Assembly: GCA_021613535.1 (NCBI GenBank)
Contig: CP075497.1
Span: 11,594,001 to 11,658,000, forward strand
Source of the DNA: Adineta vaga
Lineage: Eukaryota > Animalia > Rotifera
DNA length: 64,000 nt
Direction of reading: 5' to 3'
The translations under genes were made by a program, and so were the position numbers. This document shows positions 3,668 to 38,429 of the stretch, piece after piece; the first letter of the stretch is position 1; each line of letters opens with the position of its first letter. The notes below the pieces were generated by a model. It made no database searches and was not told where the DNA came from. It saw only the letters and a program-made list of their open reading frames with translations.

Positions 3668-5516
3668 TTATTTTATCCAATAATCTTGATGTTCTTTATA
3701 CCATTGAATTGTTTTATCTAATCCTTCATCAAAGGAAATTTTCGCTTTCCATCCTAAAGTTTTCATTGCTCCAATTGTTGTCGTAGTCGAATATCGTTTT
3801 TCCGTAAATGATCGTGCTTTAACATACACAATTGCATCTTCTGCTTTTTGATCCGAATGAAATTTTTCTAAAAGTTTCTTGGCAATATCTAAAACACATA
3901 ATTCATTTTCTCCACCAACATTATAAACCATTTTTGTCTTTCCACGATGAAATATCGTCTCAATTGCTTGAATAACATCATCAACATAAATATAAAGTCT
4001 TGTTTGTTTTCCATCACCATGAATTTTCAATTGTTCACCTTTCAATAAATTGTTGATAAATGTGGGAATGACTTTTTCAAAATGTTGTCGAGGTCCATAA
4101 ACATTACTTAAACGTACAATACAATATGATAGTTTAAAACTTTCACCATATGATTTAACAAGAAATTCTGCAGCAGCTATCGTTGCTGCATAAGGATTCA
4201 ATGGATTTAAAAGATTAGTTTCTTGATAACTTCCATCCGGTGTTTCACCGTAAACTTCATCGGTACTAATATGAATAAATTTTTGAATTTTACCATAGAT
4301 TCGAGTTGCTTCTAAAACAGAATGTGTACCATAGACATTCGTTTCAGTAAATGTAACACTATTTCCAAAGGAATTATCAAGATGAGCTTGGACAGCAAAA
4401 TGAACAATATGTGTTATGTTGTATTGTTTCATTAAATGTAAAACAATATCTTTATTACTTATATCAGCAACGATAAATGAATAATTTGGTGATGATGAAT
4501 TTTCTACATTTTTCGTATTCGAAACTGGATCTAATCGATCGATATTAATGATTTGATCATCGGGATAGGTTTCAAGCCAATGATTAATAAATGTACTTCC
4601 AATAAATCCACAACCACCTGTTACTAGAATAATTCGTGATGCATTTGGATTGAGAAGAATAGATTTTTGCTGAAGATATTCTTCGATACTTTTCGAAGCA
4701 TTAGGTATTGTAAATGATGCTTGATAGAGATGACGTGTTTCAGGTATAATCATTTGTTTATTCCATGTTTCGAATTGATCACTTAGATTTTCACCTGCGA
4801 TAATCTGTTGAACATTCAGATCACGTTTGATTTGTTTGGAAAGATATTGTTCCAACCAATGAAGTGATATCGTACCTTTATTACAAACATTAACTTGACC
4901 ATTTATCTTACTATCATGTATCAAAGCGAATAAAATAGGTAAAATATCCGAAAGAATAGTAATATGATGAGTTTCTTCAGGATCTGTTCCCCATAAAGAT
5001 TGAAATTTTGTTAATAAACCTTCTTCAGTTAATTCATCATCTGTTATTGGTGTGAAAAGTGTTGCACTAAAAACAAAACAAAAACAAACTAAGTTTTCAT
5101 TTCAAAGAATCGATTTACTTGATAATATGTGGATAAATATTGATCAATTCATCTGTTGCCTTTTGTATAATATCAATCGATAATTTCGAATCGGGAAGTT
5201 TATTTCCTATAGTTGATGTTATTAATAAAACAGGAATTGTTGAATAAGTATTGATAGTTGCTTGTGCAATGTAGAGAGGAATCAAAAGATGATCGTTCAT
5301 TGTTGCTTTAAGTGATCGATTTGTTTCGGATGTATTCTCATTCGCAATAACAATAATACGATTTGGATAATGTTTGATAATTTTCTCTTTAATATCTTCT
5401 AAGGACGATTTACCATGATGATGTTCATGAATAACAATTTGTCCAACGACGTGTAAAAGATCGTCACATTGTTTGACAATTGCATCTTGTTCATAACTGA
5501 ATATTAACCAACGCAT
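3668..5516 (-). CDS. Fusion of a degenerate NDP-rhamnose epimerase/reductase-like domain (N-terminal) and an NDP-glucose 4,6-dehydratase domain (C-terminal); one intron ~5068-5118
   Basis: The C-terminal domain has VTGGCGFIGS, STDEVYG, NVYGPRQ-x-EKVIP and HGDG-x-R, as in RmlB/TGDS/RHM. The N-terminal segment TILSDILPILFAL...GQVNVCNKGTIS resembles the plant NRS/ER segment TVLDELLPI...GIWNFTNPGVVS. Confidence 0.8.
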
Positions 5517-6590
5517 GTTCGACGTGTCTGGTTGTATTTCTTAATGAATATTAGTGCATAAATAAATCTTGTTGTTTGTTCTTTTATCTTGACGTGTGTC
5601 GGCCAATTTCTTTGCTCACTAAAAAAGAACGCAAATAATGAAAAAAGTAAACGAGAGAAAGCTTCACGACTAGATTCTTTTTTCCCCTCTTTTTTAACTA
5701 TGACTACGCACATCTGTATATCGTTACATCGCCTTGTCGCCTTTTTTTCTCGGTAGTCTGTTCAACGATTATATCGTAGAAAGAAAAATCAAATTTATTC
5801 TTAACTTGTCATTGATAATATATCAAACGATTGTGAAGGTGATTTTTTCACCTGACTTTCTTTTACTAATGTATATGTAAACATCGGTAGTCAGTCTTTG
5901 ATGAAAAATGGTTACTATGTATGTGGGATGAAAATTATATCAATCCATCGAAATAATCGACATACAAGATAAATTAGTTTTAGTTGATAGACAAAAAACA
6001 TTGTGTAGATATTCTATGATGATGAGAGAAATCGTTATATACAACGATTCCTTCAAGGACTACTATTTGTCTAAAAACTAAGATGGACGTGGGTATTTTT
6101 GCAATAATTCAGGAAGAGATGATGATGCATCTCGTAAACTCGATAACTATGAATTTTTAATACTCAGGTGTGTGAGAAATTTCTCAAGCACAGATCTGCA
6201 CAATGTCGAAAGGCTGAGCTCTCTAACTCGACTTAGTCAAAATATAGAAGCATTTTAATATGTTCTAGCAATTTTCGTAACAAACAATTCTTTTTTCAAT
6301 ATTCATTAAGAAATATTTAAGAAAACGTGTTCAAATAAATAAGTTATCTTCTCATTTGCATTGTAAAAACCGCTGCTCTATCATTTCCTGAACTATTGCA
6401 AAAATACTCACGATCATCTATAGCATCCCTTTCATTGCTCGAATTGAATTGCTTTACGAAAAAATTAATTATATTCGAAACTTCTGTAGAGGTATATGTT
6501 TGTATGAAAGTCATTCATATGGTATATATATCTTGATTATGAAGTAAACAGAAAACTTATGTTTAATAGGAAAAAAAAATTATTATTGTT

Positions 6591-20215: not shown

Positions 20216-22308
20216 ATGGATAATTTCAAAAAACTTTCCAATCGTCAATTACGTCGATCAGTACTGATACGCGAAGGTGTATCTCTTATTGTAATTAATA
20301 ATTCAATACAAACTGAAATAGAGTTTACGGATTACAATAAAATCAATCATTGTTTCATTTTTCATTACAAAACATTTTTACAATGTATCAAACATTTCAA
20401 AAAAGCTTCGTCACAAGAAAATATCATTGTTTTGTTTATCAATTTTGATAATGATAAAATACAAACAATGCTCTTACAACTCAAATCTTATCGACAACTT
20501 CAAGCTGTTTACAATCTACAATTGCAAAACGAGAAGAATAATATCGAAAAAAAGCATTTGTTTGAAAATGAATCGAAATTAATTCAAAGTTTTGATCAAT
20601 GGGATTCATTATCTATCAATTTACAAAATCTTATCAATGAAACGGAGAAACGTATAAATGATACCGGTTTAATTTCTACATGCAATTCACCAGAAAAGGC
20701 ATTACGAGATCTAAAAAATGATTTGGGTCCATTCGTTTGGACACATACATTTCGAGGTTAGTATTGTCTTGTAGAGACAAAATTATTGATATTCGAATTA
20801 TTCTAGTACTTTTTATGGATATGCCTCATAATTCTAAAGAAGCTAAATATCAAATGCTACGAGAATGTCGAAAATGTTATCGTCATCAATCTTTTCAATT
20901 GAAAGAAATTGATCATTTTGAAAAAAACTATCGATCATGTGAAGCGATTAAATGGTACACAAAGCCCGGTTTTCTCTCCTCTGTAGTGAACAAAACTTTA
21001 CGTTCAAAGAATGTATATGCTTTGTATACATTTCGGTATTTTATTTTTGATCTTTGTGAAAGTCTAGCTTTGATGCGATATTGTGATGTGAAACCATTTT
21101 CTGTCTATCGTGGTACAATACTTCATCGTGATGAAGTGGAACAATTAAAGGAAAGTTCAACTGTATCTAGTAATGGGTTTTTCTCTTCATCATATTCACG
21201 TGATATTGCTTTGATTTTTGCCAATTCTGATCAAAATCGATCTCGAACAGATGCTTATCAATTCGTTCTATTTCAAATCAATGTTGATCTCAATTTATCA
21301 CCTGATCTCATTGTTGCAGATGTAAGAAAGGAAAGTCATATATCAGATGAAGAAGAATTTTTATTCGATCTGGGTACTACATTTATTATTACTAAGATTT
21401 TTTATGATGATTTAAATCATATATGGCATATTGAAATGAGAGGATCGAATGAAGTGGCAGAACGAAGTCGTGAATATGATGCTTATATGCATAAACGACT
21501 TTTGGAAACAAATGCTACCATTCTATATGGTCGTATGTTGGCTCATATAAGTGAATATTCATTAGCTGTAAAACATTTTCATCGACTTTTACGAGTATTG
21601 CCTATCAATCATGAAGATCGTTCGAACATACATTATCAATTAGCTCGTATGTATCGTTTTTTAGGTAAACATCAACAAGCTATTCACTATTTTCTATGTG
21701 CCAAATTATTATATCGTCATCAATTGCCTCACAAAAGTTATGAGTATGGAATGGTATTAGCAGGTTTGGGTACTGTTTACATGGAATTAAACGATTCAAA
21801 ACGAGCTTTAATTGTACTTGAACGAGCTAGTATTTATTATAGCTATCATTCGAATGAGTATAATACTGAAACGATTTTTCATTTCAATCGACTTAGTTAT
21901 GCTTACTATCTCGAACAGCAATATGAACGAGCATTAGAGTTAATTAATAAAACAATGAATTATTACAAAACTAAAATGCCTGCTGATCATCCAGGTCATG
22001 CTCAAACTTATCATAATCTAGGTTTAGTACAACGTGCAATGGGTAAGAGGGATGAAGCATTTGTATCTTTTAAAGAAGCGCTTCGCATGCGAGAAGTTCT
22101 ACTTGCATCTACCCATCCATATGTAGCTCGAACATGTTATCAAATAAGCTTACTTTTGGAAGAATGTAAAGATTATCCCTTAGCATTACAATTTGCCACA
22201 AAAGCACTTCGTATTCAGCAAGTTAAGTTACCATCTGATCATTCCGAACTCATCTTATCAAGTGAACTTGTTACAAAACTAACAATTCTTAATAATGAAA
22301 CTGTCTAA
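20216..22308 (+). CDS. ARTC/VIP2-like mono-ADP-ribosyltransferase domain plus TPR repeats (intron 20757-20806)
   Basis: AIKWYT...NKTLR helix bundle, R-S-E motifs (VYRG, FFSSS, DEEEFLF), then TPRs (HAQTYHNLGLV, HPYVARTC). Confidence 0.85.
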
Positions 22309-22474
22309 TAGTTTTCATCTAGTTTTACCACAATACCTCAAATGATACTTTCTCAAATCATTTGATTTATAATCAAGAATTCGTATATTTCTCACATGTA
22401 TATACTTCATATATAATAAAATAAATCTTCAATCGTACGATAAATATTGTTCTATTTTATTAAATGACATATAA

Positions 22475-23082
22475 TCATACAAGAACACTAACAATTGCTT
22501 GAGCAGCAATTCCTTCTTCTCTTCCAGTAAAACCCATTTTTTCCGTCGTAGTTGCCTTCACACTGACTCGGTCCATATCCAATGTTAATAATTCACTAAG
22601 TGTTTTACGCATAATATTCCGATGAGGAGATACATGGGGTTTCTCACCGATAATCGTGATATCTATATTAATAATTTCACCACCTTTTTCTTGCACCAAT
22701 TTTAGAGCATATTTAAGAAATATATCAGATTTGGCTCCCATCCATTGTGGATCATTGGGAGTAAAATGCATGCCAATATCACCGGCAGCAATTGAACCAA
22801 GTAAAGCATCAACGAGTGCATGAATTCCGACATCGCCATCTGAGTTAGCTTCGACGTCATATTCTGATGGAATTGCTACTCCACACAACATGATTTTGTT
22901 TGAAGGACCATTTTTTGTAGGAAGAAAACGATGGGCATCAAAACCCATACCAACTCGTGTCTGTTTCGATGTCATACCGTATCTAAAAATATACAATGTC
23001 TTATTAGTATGTCTTCAATTATCGATATTAATCAGAAAAACATTAGATAAATATTAATAGAAATATACTCTTGATGTTTCAT
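22475..23082 (-). CDS. ispF: 2-C-methyl-D-erythritol 2,4-cyclodiphosphate synthase; predicted exons 23082-23069 and 22982-22475
   Basis: RVGMGFDAHRF, SDGDV-x-x-HAL-x-DALLG, GDIG-x-HF and SVKATTTEKMGFTGREEGIAAQA. The Zn ligands D-x-H and H are kept. An 86-nt GT-AG intron joins the upstream ATG in frame (MKHQE-YGMTSKQ). Confidence 0.95.
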
Positions 23083-23501
23083 GTAGAAGTTGTTCGAAAA
23101 AATAACTATCAATCTCTACACAGTACAATTATGAATTTCATTCTATTTCTCTTATATAATTGTACTTTAGAAACAAAACAGCTCTACGAAACCACTTGAG
23201 ATTGCGATCTATACTCGAATACTTTATGAAGTTTTGCTCGAAATGAGTGTATTAGAAAAAGGACAACGTTATACAGCACACTTTCTTTGCATCATATAAC
23301 AGTTAATCGTCTACTATATCGAGTTACAGTTTCATGTATTATGCAAATGAAACGATCAGAAGCTTAAGTAAATACCTTTTTGTCGATAAGAAAATGAGTA
23401 AGATAGAGACACGATGTAATGGAAAGAAGGTAGTATTAAAATATATTGCAAGTAATATTTCTTAAGACATTAATCTAAAATATAATAAAATATGGACACT
23501 G

Positions 23502-24596
23502 TCAAAGTTGGCTGATGACAAATGTCTCTGGAATAGCGCTTGAAACAATTGTTGTAAAAGGAAAATGAGGAGTCAATAAATTTGCTATTTGTTCTGCGTG
23601 TTGAATATTTCGAGCAAGACCAAAGACAGCCGAACCACTTCCACAAAGAAGAGCACGCAGAGCACCAGAAGTAACAATCATATCATATGCTTTAGCGATA
23701 GTTGGATAAGCAGCAAGTACAACAGATTCAAAGTCGTTGGAAAGGCTTGTGGTCAGTAGTTCATTGATATCTGTTGAATTTTGTTTATTGTTACATAGAT
23801 GAGAAAGAAGTTGTTCAGTACTTGTACCAGGTTGCCTGTTTTGAATCGAGTCAAGAAGTGCATATGCATGCGCCGTTGATACACCTGTATCGGGACGCAC
23901 GATTACTCCATAAAGAGAAGGTAATTCAAAATTGAGCGACTCAATAATTTCACCATGACCACGCATACGTACTGGCTTTTCTGCCAGAAAAAGTGAAACA
24001 TCAGAACCAAGACGAGCTGCCATTGCCATTAGTGTTCGTTGATCAATAATATTATTAAAGTGAGTATTTAAAGCGCGTAAAACAGCCGCCGCATTACTAC
24101 TTCCACCACCAAGCCCTGCTTCAGCTGGTATACGCTTGTACAATTCTATTTTAATATGACAAGGTTTATCGATACGCTCAAGGTACATGTCAGCTGCTCG
24201 ATAGGCTAAATTTCGATTATCAATAGGTAGTTGAGAATCATTGCATGTTAATGTAATAGAATTTTTGTTGTCAGCTGGTTCAATATAGATACGCAGTTCA
24301 TCAGCTGGTTCACCAAATGGAACAACAAGCGAGTCAAGACTGTGATAAATATCGGTTGATTCCTTTTTATTGAATACATCCAATGTTAAATTGATTTTAC
24401 ATGGTGCACGAAGAAACATGGTGATACCAATCCGATATTCGTCTGCGCTCGTTCTTCCTGTTACTGTCGAGAATGTGAATATAAAGAGGAAAAAAAATCA
24501 AGTATTACATGTGCGTGTTTCATGTTGCTTTTTTCTCATATTTTAGTCGCCAATGAAAGGTGAACATATACCAGAATCATAAGGAACCAATGCCAT
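23502..24596 (-). CDS. ispE: 4-diphosphocytidyl-2-C-methyl-D-erythritol kinase (GHMP family); predicted exons 24596-24572 and 24463-23502
   Basis: APCKINLTL, YH-x-L-x-S, NLAYRAA, KRIPAEAGLGGGSSNAA, LGSDV, VST-x-x-AY, NDFE and GSGSAVF. The catalytic Lys and Asp are kept. A 108-nt GT-AG intron joins the upstream ATG in frame (MALVPYDS-VTGRTSADEY). Confidence 0.95.
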
Positions 24597-25582
24597 CTAC
24601 ACTCATCAATACTATGTATTGTAGTTGTTTTTTTACTCGTACTAAAATTAAAGAGAAGATCATGATATAAAGTTACCATTCAAGTGAGATATTTGCATTC
24701 ATAAAAGAAAAGCAAATAAACAAAAAGTTGAGTTGAACAAAAGCACTGTAATTAATGTTTTCAAGCTTAAAAACTAGTATGATTCTATTCCTTCTTCGTA
24801 CTTTAATTTCAACAAAAAAGATGAAGTTTACATAGTTTTCATATGTATCTCTTTTATTTCATACTAAAAAAGATTTGTCAGGCGACTGCCGTTATGTATG
24901 AACATGTAAAAGAAAAAGTCAAACATAACAAAATAAAAATCGATGGGACAAGAATATGAAACAGAATACAAAGTAAGAAGGTTCGGTTTTTTTAGATGCT
25001 CTGTGCGTAAAATCCATTACTATTCATTACAACTCCAGATCTCATTGTAGTGATAGAACAAATACCTTTGATACGAGAACGATAAAACTCACAGTTAATT
25101 CAGAAAAAGAGTAATTGATTTACAGAAGACAATTACACATCCATCTCTAATTTATCCTATGATTGTCTGATGATTTAAACTTAAATTTCTAGAATTATCT
25201 TTATTTCTGAATTAATACTGAAATTTTTCGAGTCTAAATAAGATAAGGATAGCACTGGCAAATGTTCTTTGAGGCAAAATAGTAGAATTATTTTGCATAG
25301 TTTTTATTGATTGTGTATTATTTCGAACCTACCGTGAAACACCTCCCTCTTCTTCATTAGAGCTGAATAGATACAGTTCACCTGATCTCCCGATAGGATG
25401 AGTAGAATCTGATAAAACAGTAGAAAAACCGAAGAGATAAATACTATCTCGGTTCGTTTTCACTTCTTAGTTTGAAAATGCTTTACAGTGATGATTAACT
25501 ATTTAGAAAATGAAAAAAGTCTAATAAAAAATAGTTTAAGCTATATATTATAATACAATTAGACTATAGTTATTGTTCTGTT

Positions 25583-28353
25583 TTAAAATCCCGGTTCATG
25601 TCGAAAGGTAAACCTCAATTCATCACAATGACGTTTTATTTCAGCAGCCATGATTGCATTTCCAGTAAAGAATACAGCCGTCGATTTATGTTCAGTTTTA
25701 AATTTTGAAAATAATAATTTCCATGGTGGTCGTCCAACATGTGTCGGTGATTTCAATAGTGTATGCATGTCTTGTTGTTGCATTGCTGCATACATATTCG
25801 CAACAAGATCATAAGGAAGATGTTCCAACATTGCACGTTCATTCCTGCGTAATGATGTACAATACAAATGAATATCAAGATATCTGGATGATGATTGATT
25901 GTTGACCAGGGTTTGTCGTTGTAGTAGAAAGAGTTCTTAAATAGTTTTCTTGTTCGTTTTCAAATTCGTTGAGAATATTACGAAACCAGGAAAAGTTACC
26001 AACTTCACGATTAATCCATATAAAATCAACTTTTTTCAATTTTTGACTATTTAATCTTTCATGATTATAACTGATTGTATCACAATTAGGACAAACACAT
26101 CTTTCTTTTTGTAATCGTTGAATTAAACTATCTAAAGCACTTATCGAAGGTGTTACTCCAATTCCAGCACCAATTAAAACCACATGTTCATGATCGAAGA
26201 TATACGATGTACAAGTACTAAATGGACCTTCAATACAAATAATCGCTTCGGGATCATCCGCTGAAAATCGAATTTCTCCGATGTCACTGTTCATATTCTG
26301 ATGACCATTCTCAAATGTTATATCTGTTAATTCAGTGGCTAAACGTTTATGAAAATGATCATAAACTTTCTTTGTCCAATTTTTTTGCTTCATTATATTC
26401 AATTGAATAATGTCTTTTCGTTCAGGTGAACTCGAGATTGTAAATGGATGCCATTCCGTTTTAGCTAGAAAATAGAAAATAAATTCGTTTTCTTCATATA
26501 GAAAATATATTTACCGATTTTTGGTAAACAGATGTTAATGTAATTTCCTGTTCGAAAATTAAAACGTACTGGTCGTTCGATAATTAATGTTAAAAGATTA
26601 TTATATTCAAATCGAATTAATCTTAAACGTGTTCGACCATAACTTGATGAATATCGTTTGAGAGAATAGATTTTTTCCAAGAATAAAAGTGTCATTGGTC
26701 CAATTGCCCATTTCCAAAAATCTGGTGCATGAATAACAAGAAGAATAAATATTGGCCAAAATAAATAATGAGTATATTGAAATAAGAAATAAAAACCAGA
26801 TCGTTGTCGAATACATTGTAATGCAAATATAAACATAATCATCAATAAAACAAATAAAATATCTCCCGTAATTGGAGCAGAATGACCAACCCAACCAATT
26901 TCAGCAGCTGTTGTAAACATTGCTCGGGGCCATGAAAGTTCTAAATCAAAACATACACTAATTATACAAAGATACAGATCAATTCTTACCCTCTGTATGT
27001 GTAGCAAAATGAATCGTATGACCCAAACTATGTACCATAGCAGATATGAATAACATGGTTCCGACAAGACGATGTCCATCAATATGATCATCAACTGGAA
27101 TAATTAAACGAAGATAATGATATTTTCGTATAAATGTCATAATTTGTTTGAGCATGAGAGTAACTGCGACGAAATAATTAAAGTTAATCAACATTCCACC
27201 AACACGAGCAAACACTCGCCATACAGAAGTATTTTGAATAATAATAGTTCGATAAATACATACATAGATAATCAATATGATTTGTATTAGAAAATAAATA
27301 GCAAGAAAAGTTAAACGATTGATATTATTTTTGATATACATCCAACAACGTTGAAACCACGTTATTTCTTTTTCTTCTTCTTTGTCTTGATCGGGGATAC
27401 TAATAAGATAAAGAGATTTTAATACATCAGGATTTTGTTGAAGATTTCGATAGAATTGATTGAAATTGATTTCTTCGTGTTGACTTTCATGTTGAGTTGT
27501 TGGGAAAATCCCTTGCAGAAAGGTATCGACAACTTCTTTATGATGTTCATCATTTTTAAAGATTTTAAACTCAGATGAATAATTTTCATAAAACAAACGA
27601 ATCTCTTCCATTGTTATAATATTATCATTATTACTATCGAAGAGTTTAAATAATATTAAGGCTTTTACAGACATAGGTGAAGTCCAGAGAGCACGAGCGA
27701 TACGAATTATATCAGTACCTAAGATTTGATTATTTTCAAATGCAGATTCTAAATCAAATACCATTAATAGACGTCGACCTAGACGAAAAATAATCGAAAT
27801 TAGTTAACAAAAATTCAATAACATACTAAGCATGAATTTGACTTGAAACATACGGCCGAATTCTTCAATAGTAAAAGTTTTTGTACTAATATCTGAAGCA
27901 AAATATTTCTTAAAATATTGCCGATGTTGATCAGAGATTGGTTCACGAAATAGTTCACGAAACTGATGACTAACCACTCGCTCAGATGGAACACTTAGAG
28001 TAGATTTCGTTCTAGAAATATTTCAATAAAATCGCAATGAATTGATTTAAGATTACACTTACGAGAACAATCTTGATACGGCAGCACGCGAAAATCTTCC
28101 TCGAAGATAACTTTTTTGACTTCGTAATACAGGAGCTGGGTTTTCTCTCGATTCATCCTGTAAATCAATTGTTCTACCAATAATAGATCCGTGAGATTTT
28201 TCCCTTAAAAGAAAAACAATCGAATTAAATCGCGTTTAATTAATCATAGTTCCAATAGTTGCAAAGAAAAATAAGGATATTCTTTCGTTAAGTTCTTTAT
28301 TACGATTAACTTTTTTTGCAAAGGATAAAAAACGTCGGTGATATAACTTACAT
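25583..28353 (-). CDS. EF-hand NADPH oxidase (NOX5/RBOH-like), 6 predicted exons, with an apparent frameshift at ~25878-25936
   Basis: EF-hand FDSNNDNIITMEE; heme His pairs (GHRLVG...VHSLGH, THYLF...VIHAP); FAD-binding WHPFTISS; NADPH-binding GAGIGVTP; FIWINRE; GRPPW; C-terminal FRHEPGF. Confidence 0.88.
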
Positions 28354-28489
28354 TCTTTTATTTATGTGTGAATGTTGTTCTCGATAATAATATTTTTGTG
28401 TGATGAAATTTATTCGCATGCATCTATATATATAAACGAGACGTACAAAAAAGAACGAACTTTTTTACGTTTCTCCCCCGGTGTCTGAC

Positions 28490-30013
28490 TTTTTAAAAAT
28501 CACAGTCTTCACAAATGGAATAAATTTTACATAATTCGTGTGTGTCACTATCGATGAGTGATTTTTCAGAACTCTTCCACAACTGCCCTGATTTGTGACA
28601 TATAGAAAAAATATTTTCGCATTGTTTACTCAATCAAAAATACGTATAAATACTACAACATCAAACGGTTAATTTCATTTTCTCAACAATATTCAAACAG
28701 TTTCTCATTTACAATGGCTTTAGTTGAATTTTTATGCTATTTGACAGTTTTCGCCGATGCTGCCGTGTGTCAACGACTGTTGAACAGCACTGCTGCTAAT
28801 GCTACCACCACAATGATGTCAACAACAACCACAGCAAATCTTTCAAATCCATTGGCACCATCACGATTAGAATCAATCAAAAACTCTAACACCGAATTAC
28901 GTCTTCTATCAAAAATGAATCCATCCGATTTCGTTTTCGATTTCAACAATGCAACAACAGGCGTCTCAAGAGGCACCGGTGGTCGTACAGTTTCTGCAAA
29001 TGTAAGTTTCTCTGAATTGTTCTATTGATTTGATATGAAACTTAATTTTATTTAGGCAAATAACTTTCCGGGCGTCATCGGTCATGGTATTGCAATGACA
29101 GTTGGTTTCCTAGGTCCATGTGGAATGAATCTTCCACACACCCATCCTCGTGCAACAGAAATCAATTATTCTGTTGATGGTCATTTTCAAATTGGATTTT
29201 ATCAAGAAAACGGTGCTGCTTTTATTATGAACGAATTACACAGTGGTCAAGTGGCCGTTTTTCCCAAAGGTGCTATCCATTTCGAACAAAATCTAAATTG
29301 TCAACCAGCAACATTTGTAGCTGCATTTAATCATGAAGATCCAGGAGTATTAACTATTGCTAATGCATTTTTTGGTTCAATACCAGCTACAGTTGTTGGT
29401 GCTAGTCTTGGTGGATTAAATATCTCAACGATCGAAGACATTCGTATGCAAGTTGCCGAAAATCCAGCAGTTGGTATTGCTGAATGTCGGCGACGATGTA
29501 ATCTTTAGACTATCGGATAACAACTAAATGAGCAGTATTGTGTTTTGTATCTCAATTAATTATTTTTTCTTTTGAATAATAAATAAACAAACTCATTCAG
29601 CTTCATGTTCAAGTTTTCATCTCTGACTCAAAAGTAACTGTAGGAAGAATGTGGCCTTGATGCAAAGTAAACATACTTAAAGGCACGCAGAACAGACATA
29701 GAATACAAAAAAATCATAAACACTTTGTTTTTGAAATTTCCCCGAAAAAGTGATTGTTGTGGATTTGTATATTAATAACAATTTTCAAAGGAAGAACGAA
29801 AAGATCCATGATTTTGCAATAACACAAGAACGTGTTGTTGTTGCTTTTTCGGAACATTGACACTTCTTTCATCGCTATGCAACATAGAAGAAACAAATGT
29901 TGTATGCCATAATGTCATTCTTAGAAGTAGAATAATGCAAGAACATTCATTGAATCATCCTGTCTAAAAGAAGTGAATTATCTTATATGAAAAATTTTCT
30001 TTTATTTAACTTT
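28490..30013. repeat. Segmental duplication, copy 1 (pairs with ~36905-38429)
   Basis: Near-identical promoter, CDS, intron and ~500 bp of 3' flank; the CDS starts are 8414 bp apart. Confidence 0.95.
28714..29508 (+). CDS. Secreted germin/spherulin-like cupin, copy 1 (intron 29002-29055)
   Basis: Signal peptide, Thr-rich linker, DFVFDF, germin boxes G-x-NLPHTHPRATEI and FPKGAIHFEQN with the His/His/Glu/His metal ligands intact. Confidence 0.9.
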
Positions 30014-35887: not shown

Positions 35888-36904
35888 AGACTGGAACATC
35901 CTTCAAAAATGTATTTAGCATAAATATCCTCTGGAGAAAATGCCCCCTCCCCTTCTTTATCGAAATAGCCTTCTAGTAAATCATGGACAAAATCGAAGGT
36001 GAAGGTGTAGGTGTGAACGTAATTTCTGTGCGATATTACACATTACACACAACCATACATCACGTCTAAATCCTCAACCACTATTTGCAAGTAACGCTTA
36101 TTGAAAATCGAATCACTCGGTCCTATACTGCCACGATCTACATGTGAATATAACTGTATTTGGATATTAATCAGAGTTGATCCATACTACTTACAAAAGC
36201 AAACACATGCCATAGCGATTTTTGTAGGGACATATTCCATCGTTTGTGTAAATAAGGCTTTTCAGCGCAGCCCTTCAGACGCTAATGTGTGGAACTCACA
36301 TAGATGATTTACGACGGCAATGTGTTAATAATAAGATCCTGTCTTTAGTGAGGCTCTGTCTGTAAGGTTGGATGGAAGAAGCAAGACTAAAAATCCGTTG
36401 ACTTGAAATTTACACTTATTTTTCTTCCAAAAATATAGATGAGTCCCACAATAAAAACGATCACTTTGTACCTAAAAAATGGTCGCTTTGTCCCGTGTTA
36501 CCAACAAGCCCGATATATCGAGTTAAATTTTCGTAGCTAGACCCTATACTTTCAGTCTAGGAAAAAAGATTCAGTTCTACGTAAGTACAAGAAGTAGTTA
36601 CAACATTCAAAAAAAGCCAAGATGAATTTATTTACTATCTAATTAATGTTGCATTGTAAGTATACTTATGAGAATATTCATGGTAAACATGATAATGCTC
36701 ATTGAACAATCTGTCTCGTTTAGTTAATCGCACTGTAAATATTTACATAAAAAAGGATCACGATACTCTTTCGTGAGGTTTTAGAATATAACCAACTTTG
36801 CTTGAAAGCGACAAATAAAAACCAGTGAAGTAATTTACATTTTTTATTTATGTTTATATGTTCTCGCAATAAGAATATTTTTTCGTTCCTTCCCCGATAC
36901 ATGA

Positions 36905-38429
36905 CATTTTAAAAATCACAGTCTACACAAATGACACTAAATAAACACGATTTATGTGTCACTATCGATAAGTGATTTTTCAGAACTCTTCCACAACTGC
37001 CCTGATTTGTGACATATAGAAAAAATATTTTCGCATTGTTTACTCAATCAAAAATACGTATAAATACTACAACATCAAACGGTTAATTTCATTTTCTCAA
37101 CAATATTCAAACAGTTTCTCATTTACAATGGCTTTAGTTGAATTTTTATGCTATTTGACAGTTTTCGCCGATGCTGCCGTGTGTCAACGACTGTTGAACA
37201 GCACTGCTGCTAATGCTACCACCACAATGATGTCAACAACAACCACAGCAAATCTTTCAAATCCATTGGCACCATCACGATTAGAATCAATCAAAAACTC
37301 TAACACCGAATTACGTCTTCTATCAAAAATGAATCCATCCGATTTCGTTTTCGATTTCAACAATGCAACAACAGGCGTCTCAAGAGGCACCGGTGGTCGT
37401 ACAGTTTCTGCAAATGTAAGTTTCTCAGATTTGTTCTATTGATTTGATATGAAATTTAATTTTATTTAGGCAAATAACTTTCCGGGCGTCATCGGTCATG
37501 GTATTGCAATGACAGTTGGTTTCCTAGGTCCATGTGGAATGAATCTTCCACACACCCATCCTCGTGCAACAGAAATCAATTATTCTGTTGATGGTCATTT
37601 TCAAGTTGGATTTTATCAAGAAAACGGTGCTGCTTTTATTATGAACGAATTACACAGTGGTCAAGTCGCCGTTTTTCCCAAAGGTGCTATCCATTTCGAA
37701 CAAAATCTAAATTGTCAACCAGCAACATTTGTAGCTGCATTTAATCATGAAGATCCAGGAGTATTAACTATTGCTAATGCATTTTTTGGTTCAATACCAG
37801 CTACAGTTGTTGGTGCTAGTCTTGGTGGATTAAATATCTCAACGATCGAAGATATTCGTATGCAAGTTGCCGAAAATCCAGCAGTTGGTATTGCTGAATG
37901 TCGTCGACGATGTAATCTTTAAACTATCAGATAAAAACTAAATGAGCAGTATTTTTTTTTTGGATCTCAATTAATTATTTTTTCTTTTGAATAATAAATA
38001 AACAAACTCATTCAGTTTCATGTTCAAGTTTTCATCTCTGACTCAAAAGTAACTGTAGGAAGAATGTGGCCTTGATGCAAAGTAAACATACTTAAAGGCA
38101 CGCAGAACAGACATTGAATACAAAAAAATCATAAACATTTTTTTTTTGAAATTTCTCCGAAAAAGTGATTGCTGTGGATTTGTATATTAATAACAATTTT
38201 CAAAGGAAGAACGAAAAGATGCATGATTTTGCAATAACACAAGAACGTGTTGTTGTTGCTTTTTCGGAACATTGACACTTCTTTCATCGCTATGCAACAT
38301 AGAAGAAACAAAAAGTTGTATGGCATAATGTCATTCTTAGAAGTAGAATAATGCAAGAACATTCATTGGATCAACCTGTCTAAACGAAGTGAACTATTTT
38401 ATAAGAAAAATTTTCTTTTATTTAACTTT
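36905..38429. repeat. Segmental duplication, copy 2
   Basis: Matches ~28490-30013; weaker similarity extends left to ~36750, matching NOX intron 1 and exon 1. Confidence 0.95.
37128..37922 (+). CDS. Secreted germin/spherulin-like cupin, copy 2 (intron 37416-37469)
   Basis: Same protein as copy 1 except FQIG to FQVG. Confidence 0.9.

What the first reader, a model, noticed from the sequence alone, without database searches (positions are those of the whole stretch)
22983..24596. Both isp genes appear domesticated through a new 5' micro-exon and spliceosomal intron
ispF reads ATGAAACATCAAGA|gtatat...ttttag|ATACGGTATG (intron 22983-23068, 86 nt). ispE reads ATGGCATTGGTTCCTTATGATTCTG|gtatat...cgacag|TAACAGG (intron 24464-24571, 108 nt). 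Both restore the frame, both lie upstream of the enzyme core, and both cores are intron-free. This argues against bacterial contamination and suggests promoter or exon capture after transfer.
Basis: seen in the sequence. Interest (0 to 1): 0.75.

Follow-up and report, generated by a model that had tools for sequence, protein, structure and literature searches.

The report
Bacterial gene pair spliced across gap
A bdelloid rotifer carries two side-by-side bacterial-type isoprenoid-pathway genes (ispE, ispF); its RNA is spliced across the gap between them rather than at the predicted tiny first exons, so the pair likely shares one operon-like transcript, an unusual way for an animal to domesticate foreign genes.

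Summary
The quoted motifs and coordinates are right, but the micro-exon gene models are not supported. The DNA is bdelloid rotifer. Both cores have their own in-frame ATG (ispE 24419, ispF 22975), where homologues start.

This is a 393-nt GT-AG intron, absent from DNA contigs. Its upstream exon is non-coding and lies 126 nt behind the ispE stop. In two runs of one sample, a single contig runs from ispE through this junction into ispF. No contig shows either micro-exon, but short first exons can be clipped from such assemblies, and ispF RNA exceeds the junction contig 2-7 fold.

Best reading: an old horizontally acquired pair with a non-coding intron between the ORFs, likely read as one long RNA plus a commoner ispF-only RNA. 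The pair is linked across Adineta, Rotaria and Didymodactylos, and ispF carries a His-to-Asn change in nearly all rotifer-clade copies. Not contamination. Intron gain in bdelloid foreign genes is known; the operon-like junction was not found in print.

The parts
22475..22975 (-). ispF coding sequence (166 aa, starts MTSKQTRVG), no intron seen
   Evidence: Pfam YgbB E 3e-59; ATG at 22975; 87% to the A. ricciae-cluster protein; RNA-like contigs cover it
22456..22461 (-). AATAAA 13 nt after the ispF stop; likely polyadenylation signal
   Evidence: the X18 contig ends at 22442; function inferred
22976..22982 (-). 7-nt leader between the splice acceptor and the ispF ATG
   Evidence: the same 7-nt spacing is implied by Rotaria fused gene models and by read-through translations
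22983..23375 (-). observed 393-nt GT-AG intron between the two ORFs (donor AAG|GTATTT, acceptor TTTTAG)
   Evidence: joint 22982->23376 in X16 and X12, X13; DNA contig X1 22920-24877 and X11 22920-23481 cross it unspliced
23376..23501 (-). non-coding exon upstream of the intron, which is also the 3' tail of ispE; holds a 2-codon uORF (ATG 23470) and an acceptor-like TTTTAG ending at 23475
   Evidence: X16 covers 23376-23412; X12 and X13 are continuous into ispE
23502..24419 (-). ispE coding sequence (305 aa, starts MFLRAPCK), no intron seen
   Evidence: Pfam GHMP N+C; ATG at 24419; 76% to A. ricciae; one X13 contig spans it
   Evidence: X13 record 28

Best explanation
ispE and ispF are an old bacterial-type gene pair in a bdelloid rotifer, joined in RNA by a 393-nt intron with a non-coding upstream exon, and likely transcribed as one long ispE-ispF RNA plus a commoner ispF-only RNA.

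Shown: the splice from 23375 to 22983; no in-frame coding sequence in the upstream exon; contigs continuous from ispE into ispF.

Inferred: (a) both proteins start at their internal ATGs; (b) ispE lacks a canonical poly(A) signal, so its RNA likely reads through, is spliced, and ends at ispF's AATAAA; (c) the excess ispF RNA comes from a start in ispE's 3' tail or from spliced-leader addition at the acceptor 7 nt before the ispF ATG; (d) IspE phosphorylates a CDP-polyol and IspF cyclises it to a cyclodiphosphate, probably as a two-step module rather than a full MEP pathway.
For: Junction in 3 of 6 RNA-like runs from 2 studies, and in neither the DNA run nor the DNA-like run. X12 (1080 nt) and X13 (1167 nt) single contigs span ispE + junction + 63 nt of the ispF exon. 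No AATAAA or ATTAAA between the ispE stop and the ispF ATG; AATAAA after ispF. The spliced spacer is 133 nt, with the ORFs out of frame and a stop between them, so no fusion protein. Equal longest-contig lengths for 13 IspE/IspF pairs besides the window's own, including A. ricciae, R. socialis, R. magnacalcarata, R. sp. Silwood1 and D. carnosus. Five Rotaria gene models fuse IspE to IspF through the same acceptor.
Against: Contigs are graph paths: two overlapping mRNAs give the same contig, and the tool says so. ispF depth is 1.9 to 6.8 times the junction/upstream depth (contig depth is a crude measure), so most ispF RNA may have a 5' end not seen here. In X16 the junction contig stops at 23412 and overlaps the ispE 3' contig by only 18 nt. 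X12 has a minor unspliced contig at 23237-23387, so some ispE RNA may end inside the intron. Rotaria ispF transcripts were assembled as separate 661- and 695-nt contigs (PMC4632278 supplement). No spliced-leader loose end was seen. X12 and X13 are one sample, and the RNA status of the runs is a guess or my inference from exon-only cover.
Confidence: 0.5

Rival explanations
1. Two separate monocistronic genes whose ends overlap. ispF has its own promoter in ispE's 3' tail and an ordinary 5'-UTR intron (393 nt). ispE ends at a weak poly(A) variant near or inside that intron.
For: X16 junction contig ends at 23412; ispF depth excess; poly(A)-like variants at 23447, 23340, 23253 and 23228; minor unspliced contig into the intron; separate Rotaria ispF transcripts.
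Against: X16's ispE cover is broken at several other places too, so the break at 23395/23412 says little; no canonical signal after ispE; continuous contigs in X12 and X13.
Confidence: 0.33
2. One reading: the main mRNAs start just upstream of coding micro-exons at 23069-23082 and 24572-24596. These short first exons were clipped as tips from the assembled contigs, and the 393-nt splice is a minor read-through form.
For: Both donors read GTATAT, rare by chance in frame (17/1000 and 12/1000, post hoc); unexplained ispF depth excess; strong acceptor-like tract before ispE; clipping of short tips by the assembler (recalled, not tested).
Against: No contig over either exon in 6 RNA-like runs; depth there is fully explained by the junction contig; X13 reads 16 nt into the ispE intron; in X16 the 393-nt junction side holds about half of the ispF depth; no homologue has such leaders (though many come from callers that cannot model introns); frame-restoring micro-exons are common by chance.
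Confidence: 0.13
3. Bacterial contamination or mis-assembly.
For: Bacterial-type, intron-free cores.
Against: Spliceosomal junction in RNA; DNA contigs continue into flanking animal-type genes; homologues in at least 7 named bdelloid taxa; GC3 22-24%; the window's own proteins are recorded on a 13.9-Mb contig.
Confidence: 0.01

Closest known systems
Intron-bearing horizontally acquired genes of bdelloid rotifers (e.g. N4CMT, PMC8885841, passages read; introns used as an HGT criterion in PMC5916493, passages)
   Same: Bacterial-type gene, expressed, spliced by the host, shared across bdelloid genera.
   Different: Here the cores show no introns, and the one intron shown lies outside coding sequence, between two foreign ORFs.
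Rotaria foreign transcripts annotated as IspF and IspE in Eyres et al. 2015 (PMC4632278, supplement table rows seen; main text has no 'erythritol' or 'isoprenoid')
   Same: The same two genes were already listed as foreign and expressed in bdelloids.
   Different: Listed only as table rows; I saw no mention of linkage, gene structure or the junction.
Yeast-acquired bacterial ent operon (Kominek et al., 10.1101/399394, passages read)
   Same: Clustered foreign pathway genes; mostly monocistronic RNAs with overlapping or potentially bicistronic ones.
   Different: That was a whole operon from one donor. Here ispE-ispF adjacency is rare in the bacterial loci checked (1 of 160, reversed order), and an intron joins the two.
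Animal operons resolved by spliced-leader trans-splicing (nematodes, tunicates, chaetognaths; PMC7986045 and PMC12460157, passages; rotifer SL listed in PMC3795323, passages)
   Same: Same-strand neighbours, short spliced spacer (133 nt), acceptor just before the downstream ATG, fused gene models in annotations.
   Different: No SL addition is shown here; the acceptor is seen cis-spliced to the upstream gene's tail.
Bacterial IspE (EC 2.7.1.148) and IspF (EC 4.6.1.12) of the MEP pathway
   Same: Full-length matches to solved IspE and IspF, including the GxDxH and GGGSS motifs.
   Different: The HSDGD motif reads NSDGD in the window and in 26 of 27 rotifer-like IspFs, against H in 214 of 216 others; no other MEP gene was seen in the window.

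Membership tests
   0 of 6 RNA-like runs; contigs only, so short tips may be lost
   core Met kept in 30/31 IspE and 23/27 IspF; no such leaders
Spliceosomal intron (393 nt) | GT-AG ends, removed in RNA, present in DNA | tested here: met
Horizontally acquired, domesticated gene | nearest non-rotifer homologues bacterial; linked to animal genes; expressed; shared by relatives | tested here: met
   no non-rotifer animal among the top 120 hits of any of the three searches where a name was given
Eukaryotic operon / dicistronic unit | single RNA molecules containing both ORFs | tested here: inconclusive
   single contigs span both genes in X12 and X13, but contigs are not molecules
SL-resolved operon | spliced leader on the downstream gene's mRNA | tested here: inconclusive
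   no SL among loose ends; a 23-nt tip could be clipped; no raw reads were offered
Inherited bacterial operon | same gene order in the donor lineage; one donor for both genes | tested here: inconclusive
   1 of 160 bacterial ispE loci has ispF beside it, in reversed order; no named Armatimonadota locus was retrieved; IspF donor unresolved
IspF (MEcPP synthase) | YgbB fold with metal-binding D-x-H and His; HSDGD loop | tested here: inconclusive
   domain, GFDAH and later His align; loop His is Asn; residue roles recalled, two papers searched gave no passage; activity untested
Complete MEP pathway | dxs, dxr, ispD, ispG, ispH in the genome | not testable with these tools
   no genome held; the Rotaria foreign-gene table has no 'reductoisomerase', 'xylulose' or 'methylbut' rows, which is weak

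The most novel reading that the evidence does not exclude
Bdelloids built a two-gene operon de novo from two bacterial donors: an Armatimonadota-like ispE and an ispF from another lineage. They transcribe it as one pre-mRNA, and free ispF by spliced-leader trans-splicing at an acceptor kept 7 nt before its ATG across genera. The pair, with a rotifer-specific His-to-Asn change in IspF, would act on a CDP-polyol made by the animal's own IspD-family enzyme (CRPPA) or taken from food. It would make a MEcPP-like cyclodiphosphate as a stress metabolite, with no rest of the MEP pathway.
Probability: 0.12. Interest if true: 0.75.

Novelty: new variant of a known kind. Interest (0 to 1): 0.4.

Why it matters
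As proposed (introns gained by foreign genes in a bdelloid), the finding would be ordinary, and the proposed models are probably wrong. What remains is a compact, testable case of how two foreign pathway genes are wired together in an animal: a splice from the tail of one gene into the head of the next, with linkage kept across bdelloid genera. If a dicistronic or SL-resolved RNA is confirmed, it would give a concrete bdelloid operon (none found in my searches). It would also link trans-splicing to HGT domestication. Keeping two middle steps of the MEP pathway, which is described as absent from mammals (abstract starts), raises a clear biochemical question about substrate and product.

Tried and rejected
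- No whole genome is held, so other MEP genes and further copies could not be searched.
- No run was on record as RNA and none held raw reads, so there is no information on starts, strand or SL.
- No RNA cover over 24480-25300 and no SL loose ends: absence in contigs, not proof.
Conservation of the ispF acceptor is inferred from protein models only.
- The genome scan with an Armatimonadaceae IspE returned no Armatimonadota.
- The ESM Atlas gave only generic IspF clusters.
- Cluster look-ups gave no organism names for the nearest IspF relatives.
- The careful IspE tree did not finish; the quick tree was used (73 rows, fused and partial rows left out). The D. carnosus IspE falls outside the 22-row rotifer clade, so one origin is neither shown nor excluded. 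IspF trees are FastTree only, with rotifer-clade support 87 and 71.
- IspE-IspF fusion protein rejected for this window: stop codon and frame offset. The Rotaria fusions drop about 29 C-terminal IspE residues and are probably annotation artefacts (inference).
- Literature: 0 papers for bdelloid + HGT + MEP pathway; no relevant listing. Supplement searches of PMC3499245, PMC11258130, PMC5916493, PMC10809525 and PMC12220480 were blank, but several files were not searched or were cut, so a mention there is not excluded. Subscription papers (e.g. the original rotifer SL paper and the A. vaga genome paper) were not seen.
- Earlier-findings look-ups returned nothing.

Full report
Setting. The window is about 31% GC eukaryotic DNA. 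The two genes lie on the minus strand between an ART/TPR gene and an NADPH-oxidase-like gene. The best named homologues are bdelloid rotifer proteins: IspE is 76% identical to Adineta ricciae, then Rotaria spp. and Didymodactylos carnosus; IspF is 87% identical to a cluster holding A. ricciae. No genome was held.

Checking the observation. This is weak evidence. Each core has its own in-frame ATG, at 24419 (ispE) and 22975 (ispF). Within about 400 nt upstream, 14 and 37 ATG/GT/AG combinations restore the frame. In dinucleotide shuffles that keep the acceptor, 303 and 344 of 1000 give a frame-restoring micro-exon with a GTA donor; demanding GTATAT gives 17 and 12 of 1000, but that hexamer was chosen after the fact. 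Among rotifer-like homologues the core Met is kept in 30 of 31 IspE. Among 27 IspF it is kept in 23, 3 start at a later Met, and 1 is partial. None shows the proposed leaders. Many of these come from gene callers that cannot model introns, but the 10 full-start NCBI eukaryote IspF models also begin at the core Met.

RNA evidence. Twenty-four runs were listed, none on record as RNA and all kept as contigs. I laid eight. X16-X19 are RNA by the tool's guess. X12 and X13 I call RNA-like from exon-only cover; they are one sample. X11 is DNA-like and X1 is DNA. The only joint in the region is 22982->23376, skipping 393 nt with GT-AG ends on the minus strand, in X16 and in X12 and X13: 3 of 6 RNA-like runs, 2 studies. 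X17-X19 show no contig reaching the acceptor, although five contig pieces were not listed. X1 crosses 22920-24877 in one unspliced contig and X11 crosses 22920-23481. For ispE there is no joint; X13 extends to 24479, 16 nt into the predicted intron, and those letters match the proposed exon end at only 5 of 16 positions.

What the junction means. The upstream exon has one ATG, a two-codon uORF at 23470. After splicing, the ORFs are 133 nt apart and out of frame, so there is no leader peptide and no fusion protein. In X12 (1080 nt) and X13 (1167 nt) a single contig runs from near the ispE start through the stop and the junction into ispF. There is no AATAAA or ATTAAA between the genes, only variants, whereas ispF has AATAAA 13 nt after its stop. 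I therefore think it most likely that ispE RNA reads through and shares ispF's 3' end (inferred).

Against this reading: contigs are not molecules. X16's junction contig stops at 23412. X12 has a low-depth unspliced contig at 23237-23387. Rotaria ispF transcripts were assembled as separate 661- and 695-nt contigs (PMC4632278 supplement rows). ispF depth exceeds the junction/upstream depth 1.9-fold in X16 and 4.2- to 6.8-fold in X12/X13 (assuming 31-mers; crude), so a commoner ispF-only RNA probably exists. Rotifers have a 23-nt SL (PMC3795323, passages); none appears among the loose ends.

Conservation. Thirteen IspE/IspF pairs besides the window's own share the same longest-contig length, some as short as 2.5-4 kb, including A. 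ricciae, R. socialis, R. magnacalcarata, R. sp. Silwood1 and D. carnosus. This is indirect evidence of linkage. Five Rotaria models fuse IspE to IspF; comparing fused and unfused forms places the acceptor 7 nt before the ispF ATG, as in the window. Three read-through translations show the same F-S/R-x-x-M pattern. Orthologous DNA could not be fetched, so donor conservation is untested.

Origin. In a quick ML tree of 73 IspE rows, 22 rotifer-like rows form a clade (SH-aLRT 99) inside a group with Armatimonadota-like proteins (100); the D. carnosus protein sits outside the clade, unresolved. All 10 taxonomically named bacteria among the top 120 IspE hits are Armatimonadota. The 4 among the IspF hits are Alphaproteobacteria, but the nearest IspF relatives in the trees are unnamed stand-alone proteins. 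Of 160 bacterial loci fetched around ispE (155 re-detected, 126 with at least 1 kb downstream), 1 has ispF, upstream. Two donors are therefore plausible but not shown.

Function. Both proteins match solved IspE and IspF over their length. IspF keeps GFDAH and the later His, but the HSDGD loop is NSDGD in the window and in 26 of 27 rotifer-like copies (D. carnosus keeps His), against His in 214 of 216 others. That this His contacts substrate is recalled; two papers gave no passage. No other MEP gene was recognised among the window's ORFs (by eye), and the Rotaria foreign-gene table lists ispE and ispF but no dxs, dxr, ispG or ispH terms. My most likely reading is a two-step module turning a CDP-polyol into a cyclodiphosphate. 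MEcPP has been linked to oxidative-stress signalling (PMC11192765, start of abstract only), and animals have an IspD-family enzyme tied to CDP-ribitol (search listing; its presence in bdelloids is untested). These steps are inference.

Comparison and verdict. Foreign genes with introns are well known in bdelloids, and ispE/ispF transcripts were already tabulated as foreign. Overlapping or bicistronic RNAs from a transferred cluster are known in yeasts, and SL-resolved operons in other animals. I found no paper on a bdelloid operon or on this pair's structure; subscription papers and several supplements were not seen. New variant of a known kind; interest 0.4.

Noticed in passing
window 25583-26510 (-), around 25895: The NADPH-oxidase-like gene has a frame break between two ORFs. 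DNA run X1 and RNA-like runs X12 and X13 all show 2 extra letters at 25895, which matches the frame offset. Probably an assembly error or rare allele in the window.
   Followed up: partly
window 28461-30013 and 36878-38429: A 1.55-kb direct duplication (96.7% identical) holding a cupin/germin-like gene with near-identical proteins.
   Followed up: partly
window 20722-22308 (+): ADP-ribosyltransferase-like domain (weak Pfam ART, E 6e-4) fused to TPR repeats, converging on ispF with about 170 nt between the stops.
   Followed up: no
ispF protein residue 43 (window about 22847-22849): His-to-Asn in the HSDGD loop, fixed in 26 of 27 rotifer-like IspFs but not in D. carnosus; H in 214 of 216 non-rotifer hits. 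Possible substrate shift.
   Followed up: partly
window 23462-23475 (-): An acceptor-like pyrimidine tract + AG 27 nt after the ispE stop, followed by a two-codon uORF; a candidate trans-splice site with no RNA support.
   Followed up: partly
P0028 (D. carnosus IspE): Only 48% identical and outside the rotifer IspE clade, while its linked IspF is rotifer-like; could be early divergence or a replacement.
   Followed up: partly
P0012, P0095 N-terminal read-through: Phe-rich stretches 15-20 codons before the IspE Met resemble the window's acceptor-like tract at -44, hinting at a conserved 3' splice site (cis or SL) before ispE; inferred from protein only.
   Followed up: no
window 3668-5540 (-): ORFs resembling a nucleotide-sugar dehydratase (TGGCGFIG motif); judged by eye, not scanned.
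   Followed up: no
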